From NCBI GenBank assembly GCA_000165345.1, contig CM000434.1:832001-896000 (forward strand): a stretch of 64,000 bases of DNA, in the 5' to 3' direction. Made by a program: the position numbers and the translations under genes. Shown here in pieces: positions 32,267 through 51,437 of the stretch. The notes beneath the pieces were generated by a model, which saw only the letters and a list, made by a program, of their open reading frames with translations, was not told the DNA's origin and searched no databases. Positions within the stretch are counted from its first letter, which is position 1. Every line of letters starts with the position of its first letter.

Positions 32267-33772
32267 TTAAATGTCTTCATTTAATAGCTGAGCTTTAATA
32301 TAGTTCCCCTTTAAGGTATGATTAGGAGGAAGTTCTAGCTTAAAGTAAAGTTGAGCATTAGGAACAAATCCAGCTTTTAGTAAAGTAAGTTTTTTGTCTG
32401 GGATAACTTTTAAGATTGGAGGAGATTGATAAACATACCAATTCATGGAGGATATATTTGGATTGATGCAATCCTTAACAGATTGAATTAGATCATAAGT
32501 TGTGTGGTTGGGTCTAAATTGGAGTTGAAGAATATATTTATCTGGAAAAACAACTCTAATTGATGAATGGGAATGAACTTTCCTTTTCAAGAGTGACTTA
32601 AGATATTCATTAGTTCTGCTTTTAAATGTAGGAGCCTTTCCAAGTATTGAATCTTTAATTCTCTGAATTTCAGATTGTTCAAAATGAGAATTGTCATCTT
32701 CATCAAAATCTTCTGGAGATTCCATATCATTGATTGCTTTAACCAAGTTATCAAACTTTTGTATATTCGAAGAATGAATAACAAAGGGCTTAGTGCAAGT
32801 GATATTTCCACTATCTTGGAGATTTTGTTCATCTATAGTCCCATTTTCCATATCTCTTTCCCTTTTCTTGATCTCAGATTCCATTTTTCGCCTTTCTTCA
32901 ATAGCAGATTTCATTAGCTTCCTTGAAACATCATTATTTGTACTAACTGAGGTTGAAGATATATTTGAAACATATGGGTTAAAGTGAGAAATCTTAACTG
33001 AGCCTTCGCCTGAGGTATCAATTGAAGTTAAATCACAAGAGACAAGCTTTGGGTATTCGATCCTGTTTTTCTCACAAAAGATAGCTAATAGATGATGACA
33101 ATCTGTTAAACGAGATATATAAGCAATAGGAAGCTCGAGATATTCCTCTTCTTCTTCTTCTTCTTCTTCTTCTTCTTTGTCCTTAGTAATATCTACAGAA
33201 ATCCTGTGTATTTGGCTTGGTTTAAGCTTCACAATAACAAACCCCACAGACTTTAGCACATTCAATGCTTCTGAAAAGCTTCCAACAGTGGATGCAAATT
33301 TAGGATTTTTCATTTTAATTCTTCTAATTTTTCCTTTTCTAGGCTCTTTAATAATTGAATCAATGATCTTAAATAATATATCAGTTACTGCCTTTAACTT
33401 TTCCTTACAGATTCTGCCTAGTGATTCGACAGAATTATATAGTGATGGAGTCATTTCAAGATTTTCTGGTGTCAAGTACTCGAATTCCCAAGTATCATCT
33501 TCTTTTAATATTTCCTTTACTTCTTCTTTCGAGTCTTCTTCAGCTTTAGGCTCGTTTACTTGTGAAAATATTCGTTTTCTAATCATATCAACCAGCCTTA
33601 AGGGAATATTCATAGTTTCCCATTGCTCATTCGTAACATCCTTTAATAGTTCTATTTTGTCATACCAGTTCTTATTCACAATTGTATCAACAAATATCTT
33701 CATCTCCTGATCTTTCCTCCCCATTTCCTTTCCTAATTCCAATATAAGTTCCTCTACCTCATTTGCACCCAT
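32267..33772 (-). CDS. UBX-domain protein with poly-Glu tract
   Basis: C-terminal UBX-like fold (...TYDLIQSVKDCINP...KKLTLLKAGFVPNAQLYFKLE). An internal EEEEEEEEEEE tract is encoded by (GAA)11 at about 33145-33177. The ATG is verified. Confidence 0.7.
   Translation of the reverse strand: MGANEVEELILELGKEMGRKDQEMKIFVDTIVNKNWYDKIELLKDVTNEQWETMNIPLRLVDMIRKRIFSQVNEPKAEEDSKEEVKEILKEDDTWEFEYLTPENLEMTPSLYNSVESLGRICKEKLKAVTDILFKIIDSIIKEPRKGKIRRIKMKNPKFASTVGSFSEALNVLKSVGFVIVKLKPSQIHRISVDITKDKEEEEEEEEEEEYLELPIAYISRLTDCHHLLAIFCEKNRIEYPKLVSCDLTSIDTSGEGSVKISHFNPYVSNISSTSVSTNNDVSRKLMKSAIEERRKMESEIKKRERDMENGTIDEQNLQDSGNITCTKPFVIHSSNIQKFDNLVKAINDMESPEDFDEDDNSHFEQSEIQRIKDSILGKAPTFKSRTNEYLKSLLKRKVHSHSSIRVVFPDKYILQLQFRPNHTTYDLIQSVKDCINPNISSMNWYVYQSPPILKVIPDKKLTLLKAGFVPNAQLYFKLELPPNHTLKGNYIKAQLLNEDI
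33145..33177. repeat. (GAA)n/(CTT)n trinucleotide microsatellite, about 11 units, coding for poly-Glu
   Basis: cttcttcttcttcttcttcttcttcttc read directly. Confidence 0.8.
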
Positions 33773-36500: not shown

Positions 36501-36906
36501 TCAATTTTTTCAAAAAAAAATAGTGGGTATGACATCATAAATAGAAGCAGTTGCATGCGAAAGAAAAGTATTAAATTTTACATAAATTCGAGAGTTGTAT
36601 TATAATCATAATAAAAACAAAATAAAGATAGTAAATGTAAGGAAAGAATAAAAAGAAAGAATACAAAAAGAATATGATTAACAAAAAAAGTTAAAACTAA
36701 AGAATAAAGTTAAATATATTTGAGATTTACAGATATTTAATAACGTAATTATAAGTTAAATTGAAGATAGTATACATGGACATTAATAGGATTGAAATAA
36801 GATAGAAAAGTTAAAATACGAGAGAAAAAACTTAATATAAAGGGAACAAAAGCTAAGAGGCAATTAATATAGCAAAAGAAAAAGAAAATTCAATTAATTG
36901 TTTGAA

Positions 36907-39900
36907 ATGTTTACAGGGAGTGACTTGAAAAACTTAGTATTGAAAACTCTATTATTATTGCTACTGGAATACCTTATCATCAACTTTCCAGGAGTCTCAT
37001 CAATTGATGAAAAGGTTCAGGAAAGGAAAGATGATCCAGTAGCACATATGGACCCTGCCCCACCAATACTATTTAAGGAAATGAAAAGTCCAATTGTAGG
37101 AGTGGGTGATATTTGTTTTGGAAACAACTGTAACTATTACCAAGAAAGTAAAGAAAATAGTCCATCCAAAGACAGAGAAAGCTATCATTCAGTTGGTTCC
37201 AAAGTTACAAGGTATATATGTATATTATTATCAGAAAATACTTTTACTAGGGAAAAAGAGGCAGATTTGTTTTTTGAAAGATTAAATGAATATACAGAAA
37301 CTTCAGAATTGCCATTTTCATATGTTGAATTTTACGAGAAACTTGGAGTTTTTGTAATTGATGTTAGATCCAGTATTAAAGAGTATGAAGAACGCAGTAT
37401 ATTTCCCTTGGCTGAAGGTTTGAAACTTATCAAAAAGTTAGATATTTTAAACAAGGCTGACTGTACTAAAGATTCTCTTTTAAGTGAACAATCGGTATTT
37501 ACAAGTGGAAATGAAGATAAATCTACTGAGAATTACAGTAATAGCTATAAGTGGAATTGGAGCAGTATTCCTAATAATTTTGTAAATTTTAATCGAATCT
37601 TGAAATCCGAAGAGTCTCAAGGAAATATTACGAATAACAATCAAGGCACAGAATATTTAACAGATGAAGCAAAGCTATACAAAGAGTTGGATGGTTACTT
37701 TTTGAAAAAGTTCAATGAAGCATCTAATCTACTTAATAAACTAAATATGTTCTCTTCCCCATCCTCTTCATCATCAAATTTCAATAATCCTACTGTTTCA
37801 TCAACATCATTTTCCGGAGGGAGGCAATCTTCTCTTTGGAATGCACTCAACTTTTTATCCAGTTTCTCAAATAAGGAAGAAAAGTCTAGATCTACGCCAA
37901 TCCAGGAAATTGAAGATCCAATTTTTGGAAAAATGGACCCAACAGATGGTAATTCTAAATTAACAATATCTCCACTATACCTTCTTGGGATGAATCTCAA
38001 AGGAAAAAACATTACAGAGCTATCTCAAAAGTTCAAAAATCAAACATCTCCTATCGTTCCTGTAGATATGTCTAGAGAAGATATTAGCTTGGACAATGAT
38101 CTTGCAATGAATATAGCAACAGTAATCTTCAAAGGAATGAGTGATTCCGCTGCAAAGCTTCCACCTCCTTTTGGGAACCCTGCAGTCAAAAATGAGCAAA
38201 AGTTTCCAGAATATAATTACAAAAACCATATAAATTATCTTGAAACAAATGCAAATAATAACTATTATAATTCCCCATCAATCTCTAACTGGAGTTATAA
38301 ACCCATACCACAGGGTAACAATAATGTAATTGGTGGATATGAAAATGACCAAAGCCAACTCAATATTCAAAGTGATCACTTTAAAGGAGGAAGTTTTCAT
38401 CCAAGTTCAAGTAATAATGCTATCAATACAATTGATAATTCCATTATTGGATTTAATAGTGTTTCTCAAGTTAACTCAAATAGTAATTCTAATAAAGTAG
38501 GAGTTCATTCTCAATCTGGTTCTGGCTTAGCTCCAAATATTTTTGAATCAATAGATACATGGGGAAAACAGAGCTCAGCTTATCAATCAACTTCTTCTTC
38601 CGCCTCCCCTCCATCATATTATGCAACAAATGGTATTAAAACTATTAATCCAAATCAAGTGACTTCTAATGGAAAGAGTAATCCTGATTTAAAAGTACCA
38701 ACCATTAATTCTCCATCAACTTCAGAATGGATGAGAAAGACTATTTCAAAGCAAAATGAGGGTGGGATAAAGCAACCGTCATTTATTAACAGTCAAAATA
38801 ATCAAACAGAAATTAATAAATTTGCAAATAATATGAACCAAAATACCCCCCCAATTGTTAATTCAAATGGTAATCACTTTAATTCTCCATTTTCACAGCT
38901 TTCAAAGTTTTCTAACAATCCATTCCATGGAAATTCTGCCGGAACAACATTTGTCAAAATGAATGGTAGTGTTTTTGATGATGATAATGATATCACTTCT
39001 TTCCATCCTGAAGGATTTATCAATAAACTTCCAGAACATGTACAAAAGAATATGACTCAATCTCAAAGAGACAAAATTAACTTAATAAATGCATTTATTG
39101 GTACTGGATTTGATACAATTCTTCAGATGAATAATATAGATTCTAGTTCAAGTTATGGTAATCAGAATAATGATTTCTTTAGAAGTTCTCCTCCAAAAAG
39201 AAGATTATTTGAGATTGACTCTTCAACAAGAGGAAACAAAATGGTGATTGATGAAAACATGAAAGACCCGAATTTAAGTGATCAATCAAATAAAGAATAT
39301 GAAATGTATGCCAAATTGCTGAGTAATATTGATACGAACCAAGGTCAAGATACTGCAATGGCCTATGTGACAGGATGTGATTGTGATAGATTTCCTGAAG
39401 GAGTTGCATGTCCCATGGTGCTTTCAGGAGAAGCGAATATTGAATGTATTGGGTATAAAGTTTGGAATAGTGCAAGAAAAGGTGCTCCATTGAGTGAGAT
39501 AGCTTCAGCAATAGATTCTGCAATTACTTCTAAAGCAAGAAATATTATTTTGCCTTTAAAGTTTGATACAAAGACAATTGAAGAAAATCGAGCAGCTCCA
39601 AGAATTTTGAGGCACATCATGAGAAGAACTTCAAGAGAGAATGGAATACTATTTGCCTTACCAACAGGAAATAATGGTAAGCAGGAGTTGGATGGAAGCT
39701 TAGACTTTCCTTGCGACGATTTGACAGGAATGTACGCTTTTTGTGTGGGTTCAATTAACAACAAAAATGGAATGCCTTCGAGTTTTTCCAATGTTCCTCA
39801 GTTAAATAATGCAATCTATGCTAATGGTGAGGATGTTGAATCAATTGGAATAAATCAACAAAGACGATTATTTTCTGGTACCGGTATTGCTTTAGCTCAA

Positions 39901-42900
39901 TCAATTGGTGCTTTAAATATTATTCAAGGTATTACAAAGGATAAAACGAGCTCATTTGACCAGCTTGCTATCCTGTACAGTGCCCCTAAAAAACTTCCAT
40001 CAAGGAATTTTTTGGAGCAGCTTTTTGCAAACTCGAGTCCGATTACATTCAAGCCTCAACAGCAACAACAACAATTCCAGAAACAAAGCTCTAGGAACGA
40101 GACAGGTTCTTCAGATCCTGTTTTAATGTTTGGTATGGGATCTGGAAACAATACAAATGGTGCTTTAGGATCAGTATCTCATGAAAGGATCATGAATTCG
40201 AGTCTAATGAGTGGAAATAGAGACAATGATTTAGATGCAATAATGGCCAGGATTGAGAGCATTGAAAAAAGTCTTGCAAAGTCAGGTTTAGATGGTGGCA
40301 CCGTTTTCAAGGGAGAATTTCCAGTTGGTGGTCCATTTTCTTCACCTTCTGATTCCTCTACTTTCTCATCCTCTTCCACTACCACAACTACTACAACCAC
40401 CAGTCCAGTCAGCACTACAACTTCCAATGCTTCTACTCTAACCAATATAACCACAGAAATTCCTCAAATATTAAATTATACAAACATAAGTAGTTCCAGT
40501 ACATCCACTCCTTCTATTAGTCTCAACACTTCTACCCCTAACATCGTAACAACTCTTCCCTCTAACATCACAACAAACCCTCCTTCCAGCATCACGACAA
40601 ACCCTCCTTCCAGTATCAAAACAAACCCTCCTTCCAGCATCGTAACGACACCTTCCTCCAACATCGCAACAAATACTCCTTCCAATATCACTACTACCAC
40701 CACCACCAGTCCTTCCAGAACTCCCAGAGCCTCTAATCCTCCTCTTACGGAAAACAAAGAAGAAGAATATGGTCACTATAAGGAATCTAACTATAGTCCA
40801 GAAATAATAGGAGTTGTTCTAGATCCAAAGGAAGTAACTGAAGTCTCCAGATTAGTTCATTCCAGTAATGAACATTATAATGAGTACTATGATAGATATG
40901 GAAATCATGATACTGTTGATCACGAATATGAAAATGACGATGGGTACCGACAATACTATATTGATGGAAATGAAGACAAGAATCACAACTACGGCAATAC
41001 ATTTAATTCAGAGGAAAATATGTCAAGAAATCTTTGTTATGAAGAGGAAACCAGGTTTTACAGTCCCTTAGAAATGGCTATACCCGTAGATAATATTGAG
41101 CAGTGTATATTATCCTGTAGTAATACCCCAGACTGTAGATACTATTCGTATGGAGCATTCCTTAAAGGCCCTGGAAGCATTATTGGGACATGTATATTAA
41201 TGCCTGATAAACAAGGATCGGTAGCTTTACCAAACTTCCAATCTGGAGCTCTAGGATGCCCAGTTTCTGCTAGTATTGCTTATGCTCAGGCTATGGAAGA
41301 AAGACTAATACAAGGTATTAGTAATGCAAATGAAAATAGTCAAAAAAGTTCTTCTGCTCAAGTTAATAACAATTTAAACTCGGATTGGCCAGGCATACTT
41401 TCCACCTCTACTGTAGCAGTTAAAAGTATGAGTGGATTCTTATCTAGATTTCCTCTCAACGATATACTTCAAACAAGTATTTCCTTATATAATTCAGGAT
41501 TTCTCGATCAAAAAGGTGCTTTAAGACCAAGTGGAGCTTTTGAAAAGCAAAGTATATTACCCCCTCCTGGAGTTGGATCTCCACATGTAGTATGTACCCT
41601 ACAAGGTATGCAATGTTGTGTCCCACAGAAATCTGCTAAAGGATGGAGAAAAAAGCCACCAAGTTTTCTTAGAGTTGAAGATCCTTCATGCGAAGCTATT
41701 TATGTCTCAAAAACAGATATGTTCTGTGCAACCACATCATTATATGATAACCAGGATATCTCTTCATCAGGATATAATTCACTTGATGATTTTAGAAGCC
41801 AACCCTCATTTTCATCAAATTCTTATAGTACTAATCCAAAACCTTCAGGAAGCTGTGGAATGGTTATAATTGAAACAAGTGAGCATCTTATTTTTCAAAA
41901 CACTCTAAAAATGCCTTCTAAAGAGATGAATAATGCATTATGTGAATGTAAGCTGAATAAAAGAGATAAAAGCATACATGGATCTGGTACTTGGGAATAC
42001 TCAGTACAAGCAGTACAAGCTGCAATGAGTCGCAAAGTTGAAGGAGATCAACTTTCTTCTGGAGTTGCTCAAGCTTTAGCTTGGGTAGAAGCAGTTGGGA
42101 ATGATCCAAATCCAGCAGTGAATGGACTTGGTGAGCTTATTTCCCAAGTTGCTCAAAGACCAAATTCAGATGTTGAGTTAATTACTCAGATACCTGCAAT
42201 TAGTCAAAATGCTGTTTCTAATATGCTTTACAATCAACAACAACAACAGATTGAAGAGCAAGAACAAATTATTAAGAAACAACAATCTATTCAGCAATAC
42301 AATAATATGAGATATTTATTATCTCAAAATGAAACTGATACTAATAACGCTAACACTCAAAGTCAATCAGATCAATGTGTAACAAGTTGGCCAGAAAAAT
42401 GTCAAATTTGGAAATCTAAATGTGAGGATAACTTAATATATGGTTATAAAAATCCTCAATGCGTACCATTGACTATTTTAGAGAATGGATGTCCAATGAA
42501 ACAGGTTGGATTCAAGGTGAATCAAATAAATCCAGGAATTTTGAGCTTCAGTTTTAAACCTATGAGATTTTCAGATAATTCACCATTCAGAATTGCTTGT
42601 CAGTTTTCACTCATCAAATGTACTCTAGCAAATATTAAAAGCAAATGTAAATCAAATGGTACTAATAACTTTAAGAAACCAAAGAATTTGAACGGAGACG
42701 ATGAAAACAATGCAATTAATAACATTAGAAAACATTTAAATAATCATAAAAATCAAAATAATAATAAAAATAACAACTTATTTCACAGAAAAGACACTAA
42801 TGATAAAAGTAAAAATAATGAACTAAAACATTTATTCAAAATTCCAATGAACTATCTTCCGTATATTCCAAAAGATACAGGAGAAAGTGACGAGAAATCT

Positions 42901-43716
42901 GAGAATATTGTAGCAAAGTATATTAGAGTCCATTTTCCTCAAGCAGGAAACTTTTCAAATATGACAATGGTAAAACTATTAAACAAAGAGACTAAGAGAG
43001 AATTTGCAGCAAAAATGATTAATGAGGAGGAAATACCAAAAAACAATACTATTGAGGATGTATTAATTGACGAGAATTCAAATTTTGAGTATCTTGGTAA
43101 GGTAGAGATAGTTACTCAAGATGAAAATGATGAGGACTACTCAACTATTAAATATGAAAATACATCAATTATTTCTGATAGAATGGGAGTTGATATTGAA
43201 AATAAGGATGTTATTTTCAGTCATCTTATAAAGTCAAGCAACGAAAGTAAAATATACAAAGAACCTTTGCTTTTAGATAAATATCAACCAGATTTTACAG
43301 GTGAATCATTTCCTGAATTCAAGATGGAGAAAGTTGTAATTCCTAATGAAAAAAGTACTGAAAATGAAATATCTCAGAGTTTTAATAAAGATTACAACTC
43401 TGAATCAAAATTAGGAACAAACGAAAAAAAAGAAAATTGGAATAATCACCAAAATGAAAATGGAGATTTGGATGAATATGAAGACTTATACTACTATGGA
43501 TTTGAAAATGATTATGGAAGCAATCATAGCAAGAATCAAATTAGTGACTTTATTCCTTTCATTTCAACCAATAACAAGAAAAACAAATGGGAAGTTCAAA
43601 TAAACAAATCTTCTGGAGATAATAGAAATATACAATATAAAATAACCAAAAAGAATATTCTTTTATTTATATTTGCTTGTTATACTCCTATAATTCTCAT
43701 GTTTGGTTTTATTTAA
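36907..43716 (+). CDS. Giant secreted mucin-like glycoprotein (2270 aa) with PAN/apple domain, Thr/Ser-rich tandem repeats and hydrophobic C-terminus (GPI-anchor signal or TM)
   Basis: The track ORF starts on TTG at 36898; the first ATG at 36907 gives signal peptide MFTGSDLKNLVLKTLLLLLLEYLIINFPGVSS. Poly-Thr/Ser tracts (TTTTTTTSPVSTTTSNASTLTNITT..., NPPSSITT repeats) are present. The PAN/apple-like Cys pattern CILSCSNTPDCRYYSY...GTCILMP lies at about 41100-41210. Several Cys-rich modules lie downstream. The C-terminus is ILLFIFACYTPIILMFGFI. Confidence 0.8.
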   Translation: MFTGSDLKNLVLKTLLLLLLEYLIINFPGVSSIDEKVQERKDDPVAHMDPAPPILFKEMKSPIVGVGDICFGNNCNYYQESKENSPSKDRESYHSVGSKVTRYICILLSENTFTREKEADLFFERLNEYTETSELPFSYVEFYEKLGVFVIDVRSSIKEYEERSIFPLAEGLKLIKKLDILNKADCTKDSLLSEQSVFTSGNEDKSTENYSNSYKWNWSSIPNNFVNFNRILKSEESQGNITNNNQGTEYLTDEAKLYKELDGYFLKKFNEASNLLNKLNMFSSPSSSSSNFNNPTVSSTSFSGGRQSSLWNALNFLSSFSNKEEKSRSTPIQEIEDPIFGKMDPTDGNSKLTISPLYLLGMNLKGKNITELSQKFKNQTSPIVPVDMSREDISLDNDLAMNIATVIFKGMSDSAAKLPPPFGNPAVKNEQKFPEYNYKNHINYLETNANNNYYNSPSISNWSYKPIPQGNNNVIGGYENDQSQLNIQSDHFKGGSFHPSSSNNAINTIDNSIIGFNSVSQVNSNSNSNKVGVHSQSGSGLAPNIFESIDTWGKQSSAYQSTSSSASPPSYYATNGIKTINPNQVTSNGKSNPDLKVPTINSPSTSEWMRKTISKQNEGGIKQPSFINSQNNQTEINKFANNMNQNTPPIVNSNGNHFNSPFSQLSKFSNNPFHGNSAGTTFVKMNGSVFDDDNDITSFHPEGFINKLPEHVQKNMTQSQRDKINLINAFIGTGFDTILQMNNIDSSSSYGNQNNDFFRSSPPKRRLFEIDSSTRGNKMVIDENMKDPNLSDQSNKEYEMYAKLLSNIDTNQGQDTAMAYVTGCDCDRFPEGVACPMVLSGEANIECIGYKVWNSARKGAPLSEIASAIDSAITSKARNIILPLKFDTKTIEENRAAPRILRHIMRRTSRENGILFALPTGNNGKQELDGSLDFPCDDLTGMYAFCVGSINNKNGMPSSFSNVPQLNNAIYANGEDVESIGINQQRRLFSGTGIALAQSIGALNIIQGITKDKTSSFDQLAILYSAPKKLPSRNFLEQLFANSSPITFKPQQQQQQFQKQSSRNETGSSDPVLMFGMGSGNNTNGALGSVSHERIMNSSLMSGNRDNDLDAIMARIESIEKSLAKSGLDGGTVFKGEFPVGGPFSSPSDSSTFSSSSTTTTTTTTSPVSTTTSNASTLTNITTEIPQILNYTNISSSSTSTPSISLNTSTPNIVTTLPSNITTNPPSSITTNPPSSIKTNPPSSIVTTPSSNIATNTPSNITTTTTTSPSRTPRASNPPLTENKEEEYGHYKESNYSPEIIGVVLDPKEVTEVSRLVHSSNEHYNEYYDRYGNHDTVDHEYENDDGYRQYYIDGNEDKNHNYGNTFNSEENMSRNLCYEEETRFYSPLEMAIPVDNIEQCILSCSNTPDCRYYSYGAFLKGPGSIIGTCILMPDKQGSVALPNFQSGALGCPVSASIAYAQAMEERLIQGISNANENSQKSSSAQVNNNLNSDWPGILSTSTVAVKSMSGFLSRFPLNDILQTSISLYNSGFLDQKGALRPSGAFEKQSILPPPGVGSPHVVCTLQGMQCCVPQKSAKGWRKKPPSFLRVEDPSCEAIYVSKTDMFCATTSLYDNQDISSSGYNSLDDFRSQPSFSSNSYSTNPKPSGSCGMVIIETSEHLIFQNTLKMPSKEMNNALCECKLNKRDKSIHGSGTWEYSVQAVQAAMSRKVEGDQLSSGVAQALAWVEAVGNDPNPAVNGLGELISQVAQRPNSDVELITQIPAISQNAVSNMLYNQQQQQIEEQEQIIKKQQSIQQYNNMRYLLSQNETDTNNANTQSQSDQCVTSWPEKCQIWKSKCEDNLIYGYKNPQCVPLTILENGCPMKQVGFKVNQINPGILSFSFKPMRFSDNSPFRIACQFSLIKCTLANIKSKCKSNGTNNFKKPKNLNGDDENNAINNIRKHLNNHKNQNNNKNNNLFHRKDTNDKSKNNELKHLFKIPMNYLPYIPKDTGESDEKSENIVAKYIRVHFPQAGNFSNMTMVKLLNKETKREFAAKMINEEEIPKNNTIEDVLIDENSNFEYLGKVEIVTQDENDEDYSTIKYENTSIISDRMGVDIENKDVIFSHLIKSSNESKIYKEPLLLDKYQPDFTGESFPEFKMEKVVIPNEKSTENEISQSFNKDYNSESKLGTNEKKENWNNHQNENGDLDEYEDLYYYGFENDYGSNHSKNQISDFIPFISTNNKKNKWEVQINKSSGDNRNIQYKITKKNILLFIFACYTPIILMFGFI
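40549..40692 (+). repeat. In-frame 24-nt tandem repeat, about 6 copies (unit acaaaccctccttccagcatcacg, encoding TNPPSSI[T/K/V]), degenerating at both ends
   Basis: Three near-perfect copies at 40573-40644 are flanked by diverged copies. Confidence 0.8.
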
Positions 43717-45225: not shown

Positions 45226-47136
45226 TTATAAATTACAGAATCTATATATAGTCACAGAATATTTAGGCACATTCAACATATAGGATACATTATTTTCTGC
45301 AGAATCTTGTATTGAATACTTGATTTGCCCTTTTTTAGGGCTTGTATAGCTACCATCCCATCCTCCGTATTCTTCAGATTGAGAATTAAACTCTTGCTTC
45401 AATTCCCTACCAAAAGATTGGATAATGTTCTGATCTATCTTAACTTGGTAATTATTTTCAAGCCATTCAGTTTTATCCATATTTACAACACATAAAAATG
45501 CTTTGTCCTTGCTTTTTCTAATAAAAACAACGACAAAGTTTGACGTGTTTACATTAAAATGAGAGAAGTTATTGTAATTTGAGGCAAATACTTCTTTTTC
45601 TTTAGTTTTAAGAAGATTGATATCTTTAACCAATTTTCTCATTTGTTGTGTGACTTGGTCATTATTCTTAATTAATCCCCAATCATAGTTATAAGCTTTA
45701 TCTTTAGCTGACCACCATTTCCCTTGTAGATTCTCTGTACCCATAAAAACCATTGGTATTCCAAAAGATATACAAGATAATGAATACAATAACCTACAGT
45801 ATGCTCTTGCATCCCAATTTTGTCTTCCACCAAATTGATCTACTATATATCTCCCAATGCGATCATCACCAGAGGGATTACCACCATTACATCTATTCCC
45901 AGCTTGATCATGATTCCCTAACATTGTTAGAATGCATTGACTAGTGGAATCAAACCCACTGTGACCTTGTATTAGAGATTTAGAATATCCAGAATTCCAT
46001 TCTTGCTGAGTTTTTTGGTTCCTAAACTGAGAAATAATATCATAATATGATGAGTGAATCCAACATGAATCAAATCCACATTCTTTTAAATAGTTTGGGT
46101 TTTCAGGTACAACTTCTGCAATTAGAAACCTACCAGGAAATTCTTCCTTCAATCTAAATGTGATATTCTTCAATAACCAGTTTGGCATATTATGAACACT
46201 ATCAAAACGTATTCCATCAACTCCATACTCACCCAAAAGTACTCTACATGCTTCATATAACATATCTTGTACTTCTTTTTTATGGAAATTGAATTTGGCT
46301 CCCCAGCCAGTATCACCACCTCCCTCAAAGTATATTCCTCCTTGGTGATTATATCCATCAAAATTCCATAGTGAGTTAAGCTTGGATGCTCCGTGATGAA
46401 GAACTAAATCTACAACAATAAATAAATCTTTTTCATGGACTTTCTGGACTAAATATATGAAGTCATCAACCGACCCTAAGTGACTATTAATACTTAATAG
46501 TAGCCTTGGGTTATAGCCCCATTCTCCACAATACTCTACAATAGGCATAAGCTCTAAACAATTAAAGTTTAAATCCTTAATGTTGTCGAGCCCATAGTCA
46601 GCAATTTGCCTAAAAAAGCTCGGGTTCTTGCTAAATTTTGCTTCAGATTGAAGTGGAAAGTACTCTGAAAATCTTCGAATGTAACTTTCAACGTGTAACT
46701 CATAAATAATTAAATGATTAAACTCATGTTTTTTTAAATATTCTCGAATTGACTTATTAAAGTTTCCAAGAGTATCAGTAATGTAAGATGAATCAGTATC
46801 ATAATCAGTATATCTAGCATAAGGATCCCTCCTTGTTATTTTTTCTCCATTTGATGTTTCCAACAGAAAGTGATACCTTTCATTCATATTCACATTTTTC
46901 ATTATCACTCTTTTTATATTTATTTCATCGTCATTTTCCATTAAGAAGCTTTCATTTGTACCACTATTTACGAGCCAAACATTCTTACAATGCACTACCC
47001 ATAACCTAAAAATACATATACCAAATTCTTTATAAAACATTGCTCCCATCTTTTTTTCCTGTTTCTTAATGTAATTTGGCAACTCTTCATATTTAATTTG
47101 ACTCCATTCAACCTTTTCATTTCTCAATTCACTCAT
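45226..47136 (-). CDS. Glycoside hydrolase family 13 protein, 1,4-alpha-glucan branching-enzyme-like (amylopectin/glycogen metabolism)
   Basis: The four GH13 conserved regions are present: DLVLHHGAS (I), GIRFDSVHNM (II, catalytic Asp), FLIAEVVPE (III, catalytic Glu) and LGNHDQ (IV). An N-terminal CBM48-like segment is also present. The ATG is verified. Confidence 0.8.
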   Translation of the reverse strand: MSELRNEKVEWSQIKYEELPNYIKKQEKKMGAMFYKEFGICIFRLWVVHCKNVWLVNSGTNESFLMENDDEINIKRVIMKNVNMNERYHFLLETSNGEKITRRDPYARYTDYDTDSSYITDTLGNFNKSIREYLKKHEFNHLIIYELHVESYIRRFSEYFPLQSEAKFSKNPSFFRQIADYGLDNIKDLNFNCLELMPIVEYCGEWGYNPRLLLSINSHLGSVDDFIYLVQKVHEKDLFIVVDLVLHHGASKLNSLWNFDGYNHQGGIYFEGGGDTGWGAKFNFHKKEVQDMLYEACRVLLGEYGVDGIRFDSVHNMPNWLLKNITFRLKEEFPGRFLIAEVVPENPNYLKECGFDSCWIHSSYYDIISQFRNQKTQQEWNSGYSKSLIQGHSGFDSTSQCILTMLGNHDQAGNRCNGGNPSGDDRIGRYIVDQFGGRQNWDARAYCRLLYSLSCISFGIPMVFMGTENLQGKWWSAKDKAYNYDWGLIKNNDQVTQQMRKLVKDINLLKTKEKEVFASNYNNFSHFNVNTSNFVVVFIRKSKDKAFLCVVNMDKTEWLENNYQVKIDQNIIQSFGRELKQEFNSQSEEYGGWDGSYTSPKKGQIKYSIQDSAENNVSYMLNVPKYSVTIYRFCNL

Positions 47137-50740: not shown

Positions 50741-51437
50741 AGAAAGTAGATTATTATGCGAATAAGTAAATGCGATTAGTTTTTATAAAGTTAGTTTTAA
50801 TATATGAAATATAAGATTTTTTTTTCTTCTAAATTTGTTTCATCAGAAAAAAATTGGTAAAGAATAAATTTAGTTGAATAAAAAATAATAATAATAATAG
50901 GAAAACTTTAACTTTGATAAATAGTGGTTAAGTGAGTTATTATGGCCTTTAGCTACAAAAAAAATGGCTACACAGTTTGGCGGCAAGTGCGTAGAAATTG
51001 TGGATGTGTGTGAGAATGGAAATAAATTAAGCTGGAGAAAAAAAAAAAATCGTATTTAATAAAGTAAATGGAAAAGGCCTGCTCAAATAGAGAGGAAAGA
51101 AAGACCAAGAAAGAGAAATAGTATTGATCCAGCGAGAAGTGAAGAAAAGTAGGCGAGTAAAGATAGGAAAGAACGAAGATTGTGAAGTTGAAATATTGGA
51201 GTAGATGAACATAAATTGAGCCATAATAAAGAGGTATATATACATATATCTATATATGTATATATGCAATATATACGTGGAATGCATAATTAATAGAGAT
51301 ACAAGTTTCGAAGCAAAGGCATTTTCACGCACAAAATAATTTATTTTCTAGGTATTAAATTAAATTACATGAAATTAAATCGGAAATTTCAAAAGGAAAG
51401 CAAATATAATTGAAATTTTAGTGGATAATTCAATGAG

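What the first reader, a model, noticed from the sequence alone, without database searches (positions are those of the whole stretch)
40549..40692. In-frame 24-nt tandem repeat inside the mucin gene - candidate length-polymorphic (VNTR) typing locus
Three near-identical 24-nt units (acaaaccctccttccag[c/t]atc[acg/aaa/gta]) are flanked by degenerate copies. They encode TNPPSSIx octapeptides. Such coding minisatellites in surface glycoproteins are typically copy-number-variable between isolates and are under diversifying or host-immune selection.
Basis: seen in the sequence. Interest (0 to 1): 0.5.

Follow-up and report, generated by a model that had tools for sequence, protein, structure and literature searches.

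The report
Species-fixed coding minisatellite in Cryptosporidium cgd6_3730
The 24-base in-frame repeat is real and lies in a sugar-coated spacer of a large Cryptosporidium parvum surface protein, but its copy number separates species rather than isolates, so it is an ordinary repeat and a poor strain-typing marker.

Summary
Window 40549-40692 is exactly six in-frame 24-nt (8-codon) units, with two degenerate units upstream. Lag-24 identity is 0.67; 10,000 codon shuffles never exceeded 0.55.

The window is Cryptosporidium parvum chromosome 6. The gene is cgd6_3730 (CDS 36907-43716, 2269 aa). It is not a mucin gene. It is a large protein with an N-terminal signal-like segment, a probable dead subtilisin-like domain and a PAN/apple domain. 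The repeat sits in a 139-aa Ser/Thr/Pro-rich linker that makes up 6 % of the protein.

The three near-identical units are a C. parvum-lineage triplication of ATCACAACAAACCCTCCTTCCAGC (ITTNPPSS).
- C. tyzzeri and C. hominis carry one copy, 48 nt fewer than C. parvum.
- C. meleagridis has 72 nt fewer.
- All C. parvum sources have the same count: 9 DNA sources, and four protein alleles on about 30 contigs. They differ by one SNP.
- C. hominis assemblies differ only by single codons next to the array.

dN/dS in the tract is 0.5-0.8, against 0.12-0.18 for the rest of the gene. That indicates relaxed constraint, not demonstrated diversifying selection.

No typing scheme or paper found uses this array. 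Verdict: a new but ordinary member of a well-known kind, useful at most as a species-size marker.

The parts
36907..43716 (+). CDS of cgd6_3730 (2269 aa plus stop). [quoted passage not shown]
   Evidence: ORF. 100 % identical to P0007 = EAK89986.1 and QOY41259.1. The published cgd6_3730 peptide SSASPPSYYAT is at aa 564-574, as stated in PMC8710574. The upstream neighbour P5CR is cgd6_3720.
40342..40758 (+). Ser/Thr/Pro-rich mucin-like linker, aa 1146-1284. S+T+P is 65.5 % against 20.9 % in the rest of the protein. It holds 7 N-X-S/T sequons.
   Evidence: It is the only stretch of the protein where 40-aa windows reach 60 % S+T+P.
40501..40548 (+). Two degenerate upstream units (TSTPSISL, NTSTPNIV).
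   Evidence: 10-16/24 identity to the other units. TRF period-24 row at 40524-40576.
40549..40692 (+). The array as reported: six 24-nt (8-codon) units in frame.
40567..40638 (+). Triplicated core in its most parsimonious phase: 3 x ATCACAACAAACCCTCCTTCCAGC (ITTNPPSS). Copy 2 carries 2 synonymous changes. Copy 3 carries ACA>AAA (T>K), which is polymorphic within C. parvum.
   Evidence: C. tyzzeri has one copy identical to copy 1, and C. hominis has one copy.
40645..40650 (+). Thr-Thr codons (ACG ACA). At the orthologous ACA ACA, C. hominis UdeA01 and TU502 (2004) lack one codon.
40690..40707 (+). Poly-Thr ACT/ACC run directly after the array. One C. hominis assembly (GCA_045269125.1) has an extra ACC here.
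39292..40059 (+). Highly conserved domain (aa 796-1051) with weak subtilisin (S8) similarity. The catalytic Ser position is Gly (FSGTGIALAQ), so it is a probable pseudo-protease.
   Evidence: 90 % mean column identity across 6 species; profile hit to 7xr8_A, E = 0.0033, with GTS aligned to GTG. Pfam and single-sequence PDB searches were negative.
41053..41232 (+). PAN/apple domain, downstream of the linker.
   Evidence: PAN_1 22.3 bits against a cut-off of 21.4 when the segment is scanned alone. It is below the cut-off on the whole protein.
43657..43713 (+). C-terminal hydrophobic segment ILLFIFACYTPIILMFGFI at the very end of the protein. It could be a TM anchor without a tail or a GPI-signal-like segment.
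Evidence: Kyte-Doolittle 2.49.

Best explanation
This is an imperfect, in-frame 24-nt coding minisatellite. It lies inside the 139-aa Ser/Thr/Pro-rich mucin-like linker that separates a conserved subtilisin-like (probably inactive) domain from the PAN/apple domain of cgd6_3730. That gene encodes a large C. parvum protein with a signal-like N-terminus, reported to be associated with the sporozoite pellicle.

Shown:
- The three near-identical units are a C. parvum-lineage triplication of one 24-nt unit (ATCACAACAAACCCTCCTTCCAGC, ITTNPPSS). This unit is single-copy in C. tyzzeri and C. hominis and absent or degenerate in C. meleagridis.
- The change is by exact multiples of 24 nt.
- The copies have since picked up 2 synonymous substitutions and 1 still-polymorphic non-synonymous substitution.
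- The unit count is the same in every C. parvum sequence available.

Inferred:
- The units were gained by replication slippage or unequal exchange between neighbouring degenerate units.
- The tract works as an extended, O-GalNAc- and N-glycosylated spacer. Only its composition and approximate length matter, so whole-unit indels and amino-acid changes are tolerated (relaxed constraint).
- The interruptions that now separate the copies keep the slippage rate low.

It therefore behaves as a fixed difference between species, not as a fast VNTR between isolates.
For: - Array and frame.
- Gene identity.
- Whole-unit differences between species: -48 nt in C. hominis and C. tyzzeri, -72 nt in C. meleagridis. 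The 16-aa indel is the only indel longer than 1 aa between the C. parvum and C. hominis proteins.
- Duplication phase: the copies differ by 2, 1 and 3 nt, and C. tyzzeri's single copy is identical to copy 1.
- Invariance in C. parvum: 491 nt between the anchors in the window and L001-L004, L008-L011. P0008 is carried by at least 24 contigs from separate runs and P0007 by 4. The 90 % cluster contains no other C. parvum length variant at the array.
- Relaxed constraint: omega in the tract is 0.55, 0.74 and 0.80, against 0.12-0.18 in the rest. N:S enrichment has Fisher p = 0.026 (C. hominis) and 4e-6 (C. meleagridis).
- Composition: 65.5 % S+T+P and 7 sequons.
- C. parvum O-GalNAc transferases modify Ser/Thr-rich domains of other surface glycoproteins (PMC5549699).
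- Pellicle-type immunofluorescence for cgd6_3730 (PMC8710574).
Against: - Sampling is limited and not independent. Many of the roughly 30 C. parvum contigs come from one run series (DRR7292xx), and only genes called full-length are indexed. A rare or lineage-restricted length allele cannot be excluded; the upper 95 % bound on its frequency is about 9 % even if the samples were independent.
- Within C. parvum, 5 of the 10 amino-acid differences between the window and the ERR14760746 allele fall in the tract (binomial p = 1e-4). This fits relaxed constraint but also weak diversifying selection.
- No glycopeptide from this protein appears in the one glycoproteomic supplement searched, so glycosylation of the tract is inference.
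- The slippage mechanism is inferred from the pattern, not observed.
Confidence: 0.78

Rival explanations
1. It is a true isolate-level VNTR. Copy number varies among C. parvum (or C. hominis) field isolates, and the available assemblies simply under-sample that variation, so the locus would be useful in MLVA.
For: - The array has changed by whole units at least twice in the genus.
- The interval does show length polymorphism among C. hominis assemblies: three protein lengths, 2251, 2252 and 2253 aa.
- The C. parvum sampling is shallow and clustered.
Against: - No unit-count variant appears among the 9 C. parvum DNA sources or the four protein alleles on about 30 contigs. This includes a divergent allele with 10 aa differences.
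- The C. hominis changes are 3-nt steps outside the triplicated unit.
- The array is imperfect (79 % matches), which disfavours slippage.
- The locus is absent from the validated 7-locus MLVA scheme (PMC9043402).
- It is absent from the 32 chromosome-6 loci of PMC3810731, which were chosen after a TRF screen of 325 repeats.
- 'cgd6_3730' appears in only one paper of the searched library, and that paper is unrelated to typing.
Confidence: 0.1
2. The unit gain and the amino-acid changes in the tract are driven by host immune (diversifying) selection on an exposed epitope.
For: - dN/dS in the tract is 3-6 times that of the rest of the gene.
- Half of the intraspecific amino-acid changes fall in 6 % of the protein.
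- The T/K polymorphism lies in copy 3.
- The protein gives surface or pellicle staining (PMC8710574).
Against: - Omega stays below 1 in all three species comparisons.
- The MK-type contrast for the tract is not significant (p = 0.38).
- Two of the three post-duplication substitutions are synonymous.
- Copy number is fixed within species.
- No antigenicity data exist for this protein in the searched literature.
Confidence: 0.08
3. The apparent copy number is an assembly artefact: repeats collapsed or expanded by short-read assemblers.
For: Tandem repeats are commonly mis-assembled. The TU502 2004 and 2012 proteins differ by one codon here.
Against: - The whole array is 144 nt and the triplicated core is 72 nt, shorter than typical reads.
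- Chromosome-scale NCBI assemblies, the deposited Iowa II and CAD98415 proteins, and several independent Logan short-read assemblies all give the identical C. parvum sequence.
- The C. hominis deletion is identical in five proteins and three DNA sources.
Confidence: 0.02

Closest known systems
cgd6_4290_9811 (MSC6-5) and the other coding VNTRs of the C. parvum MLVA scheme (PMC9043402)
   Same: An in-frame tandem repeat inside a large gene on C. parvum chromosome 6, detectable with TRF and flanked by conserved sequence suitable for primers.
   Different: Those loci were chosen because unit number varies among C. parvum isolates (for example, Hunter-Gaston index 0.32 for cgd6_4290). The cgd6_3730 array shows no unit-number variation within C. 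parvum in the data available, and it is imperfect.
gp60 (cgd6_1080) serine TCA/TCG microsatellite
   Same: A coding repeat that specifies an O-glycosylated Ser/Thr stretch of a surface glycoprotein. Its length changes stay in frame.
   Different: gp60 has a 3-nt unit, is hypervariable within species and is the standard subtyping target. Here the unit is 24 nt, there are three clean copies, and the count is fixed within species.
Mucin-like domains of GP900 and other C. parvum mucin-like glycoproteins (PMC9111948, PMC5549699, PMC9973360)
   Same: A Thr/Ser/Pro-rich low-complexity tract in a secreted or membrane-anchored protein, and a likely substrate of the parasite's O-GalNAc transferases.
   Different: In cgd6_3730 the tract is a short (139 aa) linker between globular domains, not the bulk of the protein. 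No glycopeptide evidence was found for it.
C6-3690 TCT microsatellite marker (PMC3810731)
   Same: A published chromosome-6 repeat marker that lies in the same window, 7 kb upstream.
   Different: It is a different gene and a different repeat (TTC x 11.7 at 33143-33177). In C. hominis it was polymorphic only through one SNP (2 haplotypes).

Membership tests
VNTR / MLVA typing locus | Head-to-tail tandem repeat of a unit of at least 6 nt | tested here: met
   TRF: period 24, 5.2 copies, score 145. Shuffle test: 0 of 10,000 reached the observed value.
VNTR / MLVA typing locus | Unit number differs among isolates of the same species | tested here: not met
   C. parvum: the same 491-nt interval in 9 DNA sources, and 4 protein alleles on about 30 contigs. 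C. hominis: the same unit count in 5 proteins from 6 assemblies, with only 3-nt indels. Sampling is limited.
VNTR / MLVA typing locus | Conserved flanks that allow one primer pair | tested here: met
   The flanks are near-identical in C. parvum, C. hominis and C. tyzzeri.
VNTR / MLVA typing locus | Homogeneous units, so that fragment size converts to copy number | tested here: inconclusive
   The core copies are 21-23/24 identical, but the whole array has only 79 % matches, and single-codon indels occur next to it in C. hominis.
Mucin-like (O-glycosylated Ser/Thr/Pro-rich) domain | High Ser+Thr+Pro content in a low-complexity tract | tested here: met
   65.5 % against 20.9 % in the rest of the protein.
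Mucin-like (O-glycosylated Ser/Thr/Pro-rich) domain | The protein enters the secretory pathway | tested here: inconclusive
   There is an N-terminal hydrophobic stretch at aa 7-33 (Kyte-Doolittle 1.8-1.9), and database names say 'signal peptide'. No dedicated predictor was run.
Mucin-like (O-glycosylated Ser/Thr/Pro-rich) domain | Dense O-glycan occupancy | not testable with these tools
   No entry for cgd6_3730 or TNPPSS in the supplements of PMC5549699.
Cryptosporidium 'mucin genes' (GP900, gp40/15, CpMuc) | The protein is dominated by mucin-type tracts | tested here: not met
   The tract is 139 of 2269 aa. The remainder is under strong purifying selection and holds globular domains.
Subtilisin-like peptidase S8 | Significant sequence similarity to S8 domains | tested here: inconclusive
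   No Pfam hit and no phmmer hit in PDB. A profile of 6 orthologues hits the S8 protease 7xr8_A at E = 0.0033 over about 105 residues. The structure model was unusable (pLDDT 34.6).
Subtilisin-like peptidase S8 | Catalytic Ser in the GTSxA motif | tested here: not met
   The aligned position is Gly (FSGTGIALAQ) and is invariant in 6 species. This depends on a weak alignment.
PAN/apple domain | Pfam PAN_1 at or above the gathering score | tested here: met
   22.3 bits against 21.4 on the segment, but 19.8 on the whole protein. Borderline.

The most novel reading that the evidence does not exclude
The C. parvum-specific triplication of ITTNPPSS is the only indel longer than 1 aa between the C. 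parvum and C. hominis cgd6_3730 proteins. It might lengthen a glycosylated stalk that presents the subtilisin-like and PAN domains on the sporozoite surface. On this reading it would contribute to the difference in host range or attachment between the zoonotic and the human-restricted species. Alternatively, unit number may vary in unsampled C. parvum lineages, which would give a new MLVA locus.
Probability: 0.05. Interest if true: 0.45.

Novelty: new member of a known kind. Interest (0 to 1): 0.15.

Why it matters
The practical value is small. A PCR across 40500-40750 should give about 251 bp in C. parvum, about 200 ± 3 bp in C. hominis, 203 bp in C. tyzzeri and about 179 bp in C. meleagridis. 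That is a simple species-size marker, but many such assays already exist. For strain typing, the present data say the locus is uninformative in C. parvum.

Biologically, it is a clean example of a whole-unit expansion in a mucin-like linker that became fixed in one lineage and then decayed. It also shows that the linker is the least constrained part of an otherwise strongly conserved, barely studied surface protein.

Tried and rejected
- Protein search with only the repeat region plus about 100-aa flanks. It returned nothing, not even the known full-length proteins, because the candidate list was swamped by Ser/Thr-rich word matches. One capped search was wasted.
- AlphaFold2 on the conserved aa 796-1051 domain with a 6-sequence alignment. 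Mean pLDDT was 34.6, so the model is unusable and no fold search was run.
- Pfam on the whole protein and on five segments, and single-sequence PDB search: no S8 hit.
- Metagenome scan with an exact 25-mer upstream of the array: 0 hits, so no extra isolates.
- Literature: 'cgd6_3730' occurs in one paper only. The VNTR-discovery paper of Perez-Cordon et al. 2016 is not held, so I could not check its list of 28 candidate loci. The supplements of PMC9317183 and PMC11293552 are not held. A search for VNTR-discovery papers found nothing relevant, one query was malformed, and PMC12636221 concerns gp60 only.
- Antisense ORF 40471-40776 (101 aa): rejected as a gene. It is the reverse complement of the repeat inside a conserved CDS.
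- Rfam scan of 39500-41500 on both strands at E up to 1: nothing.
- The known marker C6-3690 was considered as a possible identity for the locus and rejected. Its primers map to 32710-33603.
Full report
**1. What is in the sequence**

Positions 40549-40692 read as six consecutive 24-nt units:

| Window coordinates | Encoded octapeptide |
|---|---|
| 40549-40572 | TTLPSNIT |
| 40573-40596 | TNPPSSIT |
| 40597-40620 | TNPPSSIK |
| 40621-40644 | TNPPSSIV |
| 40645-40668 | TTPSSNIA |
| 40669-40692 | TNTPSNIT |

The outer units are 15-19/24 identical to them. Two more degenerate units (TSTPSISL, NTSTPNIV) lie at 40501-40548.

Tandem Repeats Finder gives period 24 at 40566-40691, with 5.2 copies, 79 % matches and score 145. 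It also gives a period-48 description of the same array.

Lag-24 self-identity over 40501-40716 is 0.67. The maximum over lags 9-60 in 10,000 codon shuffles of the same region was 0.55, and none reached the observed value. The 24-mer ATCACAACAAACCCTCCTTCCAGC with up to 3 mismatches occurs three times in the 64-kb window, all here, against 0 expected.

**2. Which gene**

The window has about 30 % G+C. The array lies in a 2272-codon ORF at 36898-43716 (+).

Homologues are all from Cryptosporidium. The 90 % cluster contains C. parvum, C. hominis and C. tyzzeri proteins. The annotated protein starts at the ATG at 36907 and is 2269 aa long (P0007 = EAK89986.1 from Iowa II, also QOY41259.1). The window is identical over 12.8 kb to three independent C. 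parvum sources at about 866-873 kb of chromosome 6.

The peptide SSASPPSYYAT, which PMC8710574 lists as residues 564-574 of cgd6_3730, sits at exactly 564-574. The upstream neighbour is pyrroline-5-carboxylate reductase, which is cgd6_3720. The gene is therefore cgd6_3730.

That paper reports immunofluorescence 'pellicle with some granulated signals', non-micronemal.

**3. Is it a 'mucin gene'? No**

Only residues 1146-1284 (window 40342-40758) are mucin-like. S+T+P is 65.5 % there against 20.9 % elsewhere, and the tract has seven N-X-S/T sequons. That is 6 % of the protein.

Upstream of the tract is a domain (aa 796-1051) that is 90 % identical per column across six Cryptosporidium species. 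Pfam and single-sequence PDB searches do not recognise it. A profile of the six orthologues hits one S8 subtilisin, 7xr8_A, at E = 0.0033. The hit aligns PTGNNG with AAGNEG, and FSGTGIALAQ with FSGTSMATPH. In that weak alignment the catalytic Ser is an invariant Gly. A structure prediction failed (pLDDT 34.6), so 'pseudo-subtilisin' is a supported lead, not a demonstration.

Downstream of the tract is a PAN/apple domain (PAN_1 22.3 bits against a cut-off of 21.4 on the segment). The protein begins with a hydrophobic signal-like stretch. It ends in a 19-residue hydrophobic segment with no tail.

**4. Variation**

*Protein level.* Alignments of 15 proteins show that the single large difference between C. 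parvum and C. hominis or C. tyzzeri over the whole protein is a 16-aa gap in this array. C. meleagridis lacks 24 aa there.

*DNA level.* The interval between conserved anchors has these lengths:

| Source | Interval length | Array vs C. parvum |
|---|---|---|
| Window and eight other C. parvum sources (three NCBI assemblies, five Logan runs) | 491 nt | reference |
| C. hominis | 440, 443 or 437 nt | -48 nt |
| C. tyzzeri | 440 nt | -48 nt |
| C. meleagridis | 395 nt | -72 nt |

The missing array sequence is exactly 48 nt in C. hominis and C. tyzzeri, and 72 nt in C. meleagridis. The 24-nt periodicity is therefore preserved between species.

*Within C. parvum.* The only difference in the array is one A>C SNP (K>T in the third copy) in run ERR14760746. 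That allele differs from the window at 10 amino-acid positions overall. Allele P0008 has the same array length and is carried by at least 24 contigs from separate sequencing runs. P0007 is carried by 4 contigs. The cluster contains no other C. parvum variant. The longer CAD98415 protein differs only through its gene model.

*Within C. hominis.* The three protein lengths (2251, 2252, 2253 aa) come from single-codon indels. One ACA is lost from an ACA-ACA pair just after the core, and one ACC is gained in the poly-Thr run. These steps do not keep the 24-nt period.

**5. History of the array**

That pattern is unlikely for random decay. Scanning all phases shows that a unit starting at 40566-40570 minimises the differences.

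In the codon-aligned phase, the unit is ATC ACA ACA AAC CCT CCT TCC AGC (ITTNPPSS), spanning 40567-40638:
- Copy 2 differs from copy 1 by two synonymous changes (ACA>ACG, AGC>AGT).
- Copy 3 differs by ACA>AAA only.
- In ERR14760746, copy 3 is identical to copy 1.
- C. tyzzeri has exactly one copy, identical to copy 1.
- C. hominis has one copy (ATC ACG GCA AAC ...).

By parsimony, the C. parvum lineage gained two copies. Three substitutions have accumulated in the copies, and both divergent C. parvum alleles carry all three copies. This suggests the gain is old within the lineage and is now fixed. The mechanism, slippage or unequal exchange among neighbouring degenerate units, is inferred from the exact whole-unit register.

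**6. Selection**

Nei-Gojobori estimates:

| Comparison with C. parvum | omega, rest of gene | omega, Ser/Thr/Pro tract |
|---|---|---|
| C. hominis | 0.118 | 0.55 |
| C. tyzzeri | 0.175 | 0.74 |
| C. meleagridis | 0.134 | 0.80 |

The excess of non-synonymous changes in the tract is significant (Fisher p = 0.026 for C. hominis and 4e-6 for C. meleagridis). Omega never exceeds 1.

Within C. parvum, 5 of the 10 amino-acid differences between two alleles lie in the tract (p = 1e-4). The MK-type contrast is not significant (p = 0.38).

This is what a composition-constrained, length-tolerant glycosylated spacer would show. It does not demonstrate diversifying selection, though weak diversifying selection is not excluded.

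**7. Function (inferred)**

C. parvum O-GalNAc transferases densely modify Ser/Thr-rich domains of Gp40, Gp20, Gp15 and GP900 (PMC5549699). The tract has the same composition, so it probably forms an extended glycosylated stalk between the subtilisin-like domain and the PAN domain. No glycopeptide of cgd6_3730 is listed in that paper's supplements.

**8. Comparison with known typing loci**

- The validated seven-locus C. parvum MLVA scheme has only cgd6_4290_9811 (MSC6-5) on chromosome 6 (PMC9043402).
- A TRF screen of chromosome 6 found 325 repeats and tried 46. It ended with 24 new loci plus 8 older ones (PMC3810731).
- The nearest of those loci, C6-3690, maps by exact primer matches to window 32710-33603. 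It spans the TTC repeat at 33143-33177 in another gene.
- 'cgd6_3730' occurs in one paper of the searched library, and that paper is unrelated to typing.
- The list of 28 candidate loci of Perez-Cordon et al. 2016 could not be read.

**9. Other strand and other readings**

The 101-codon antisense ORF at 40471-40776 is a by-product of the repeat inside a conserved CDS. Rfam finds nothing on either strand.

Assembly artefact is unlikely. The array is 144 nt long, and independent chromosome-scale and short-read assemblies agree with each other and with the deposited Iowa II and CAD98415 proteins.

**10. Verdict**

It is a fixed species difference, not an isolate-level VNTR, on present evidence. 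The gene is not a mucin gene, and diversifying selection is not shown.

It is a new but ordinary member of the well-known class of coding minisatellites in apicomplexan mucin-like domains. Interest is low. The main uncertainty is the shallow, non-independent sampling of C. parvum isolates.

Noticed in passing
window 32710-33603 (repeat at 33143-33177): The published chromosome-6 MLST marker C6-3690 (TCT/TTC microsatellite, PMC3810731) maps here by exact matches of all four primers. TRF shows TTC x 11.7. The window therefore already contains one known typing locus, 7 kb upstream of the finding.
   Followed up: yes
window 39292-40059 (aa 796-1051 of cgd6_3730); motif FSGTGIALAQ at 39871: A very conserved domain with weak S8-subtilisin similarity (7xr8_A, E = 0.0033). 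In that alignment the catalytic Ser position is an invariant Gly in six Cryptosporidium species. The database name 'subtilisin' or 'peptidase S8/S53' probably labels an inactive pseudo-protease. The structure prediction failed (pLDDT 35).
   Followed up: partly
window 43657-43713: The protein ends in a 19-residue hydrophobic segment with no cytoplasmic tail, preceded by ...NKSSGDNRNIQYKITKKN. This looks more like a GPI-attachment signal than the annotated transmembrane domain.
   Followed up: no
window ~40342-40365 (aa ~1147-1154, PSDSSTFS): C. meleagridis lacks another stretch of exactly 24 nt (8 codons) in the same Ser/Thr-rich tract but outside the array. The chipmunk genotype I sequence lacks 21 nt at the same place.
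   Followed up: partly
P0012 (CAD98415.1) versus window 36907-43716 and the downstream TRAPP gene: The older chromosome-6 gene model removes 13 aa (TRYICILLSENTF) as if it were an intron. It also adds 79 C-terminal residues that appear to come from the downstream TRAPP gene (not verified). This is a difference in annotation, not in sequence.
   Followed up: partly
C. hominis proteins P0015 (TU502, 2004) and P0009 (TU502_2012): Two sequencings of nominally the same isolate differ by one Thr codon next to the array (2251 against 2252 aa). Either the 2004 draft has an error or the passaged isolate has changed.
   Followed up: no
window 15707-15772, 51235-51276, 60698-60740: AT-rich TA/TATA-type microsatellites, seen in the TRF output. 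Whether they are intergenic was not checked. These perfect short-unit repeats are a priori more likely to vary between isolates than the 24-nt coding array.
   Followed up: no
window 45226-47136 (-): A 636-aa ORF with a weak alpha-amylase-family Pfam hit, downstream of a TRAPP-subunit gene. These are ordinary housekeeping neighbours. The locus is not a mucin or antigen gene cluster.
   Followed up: no
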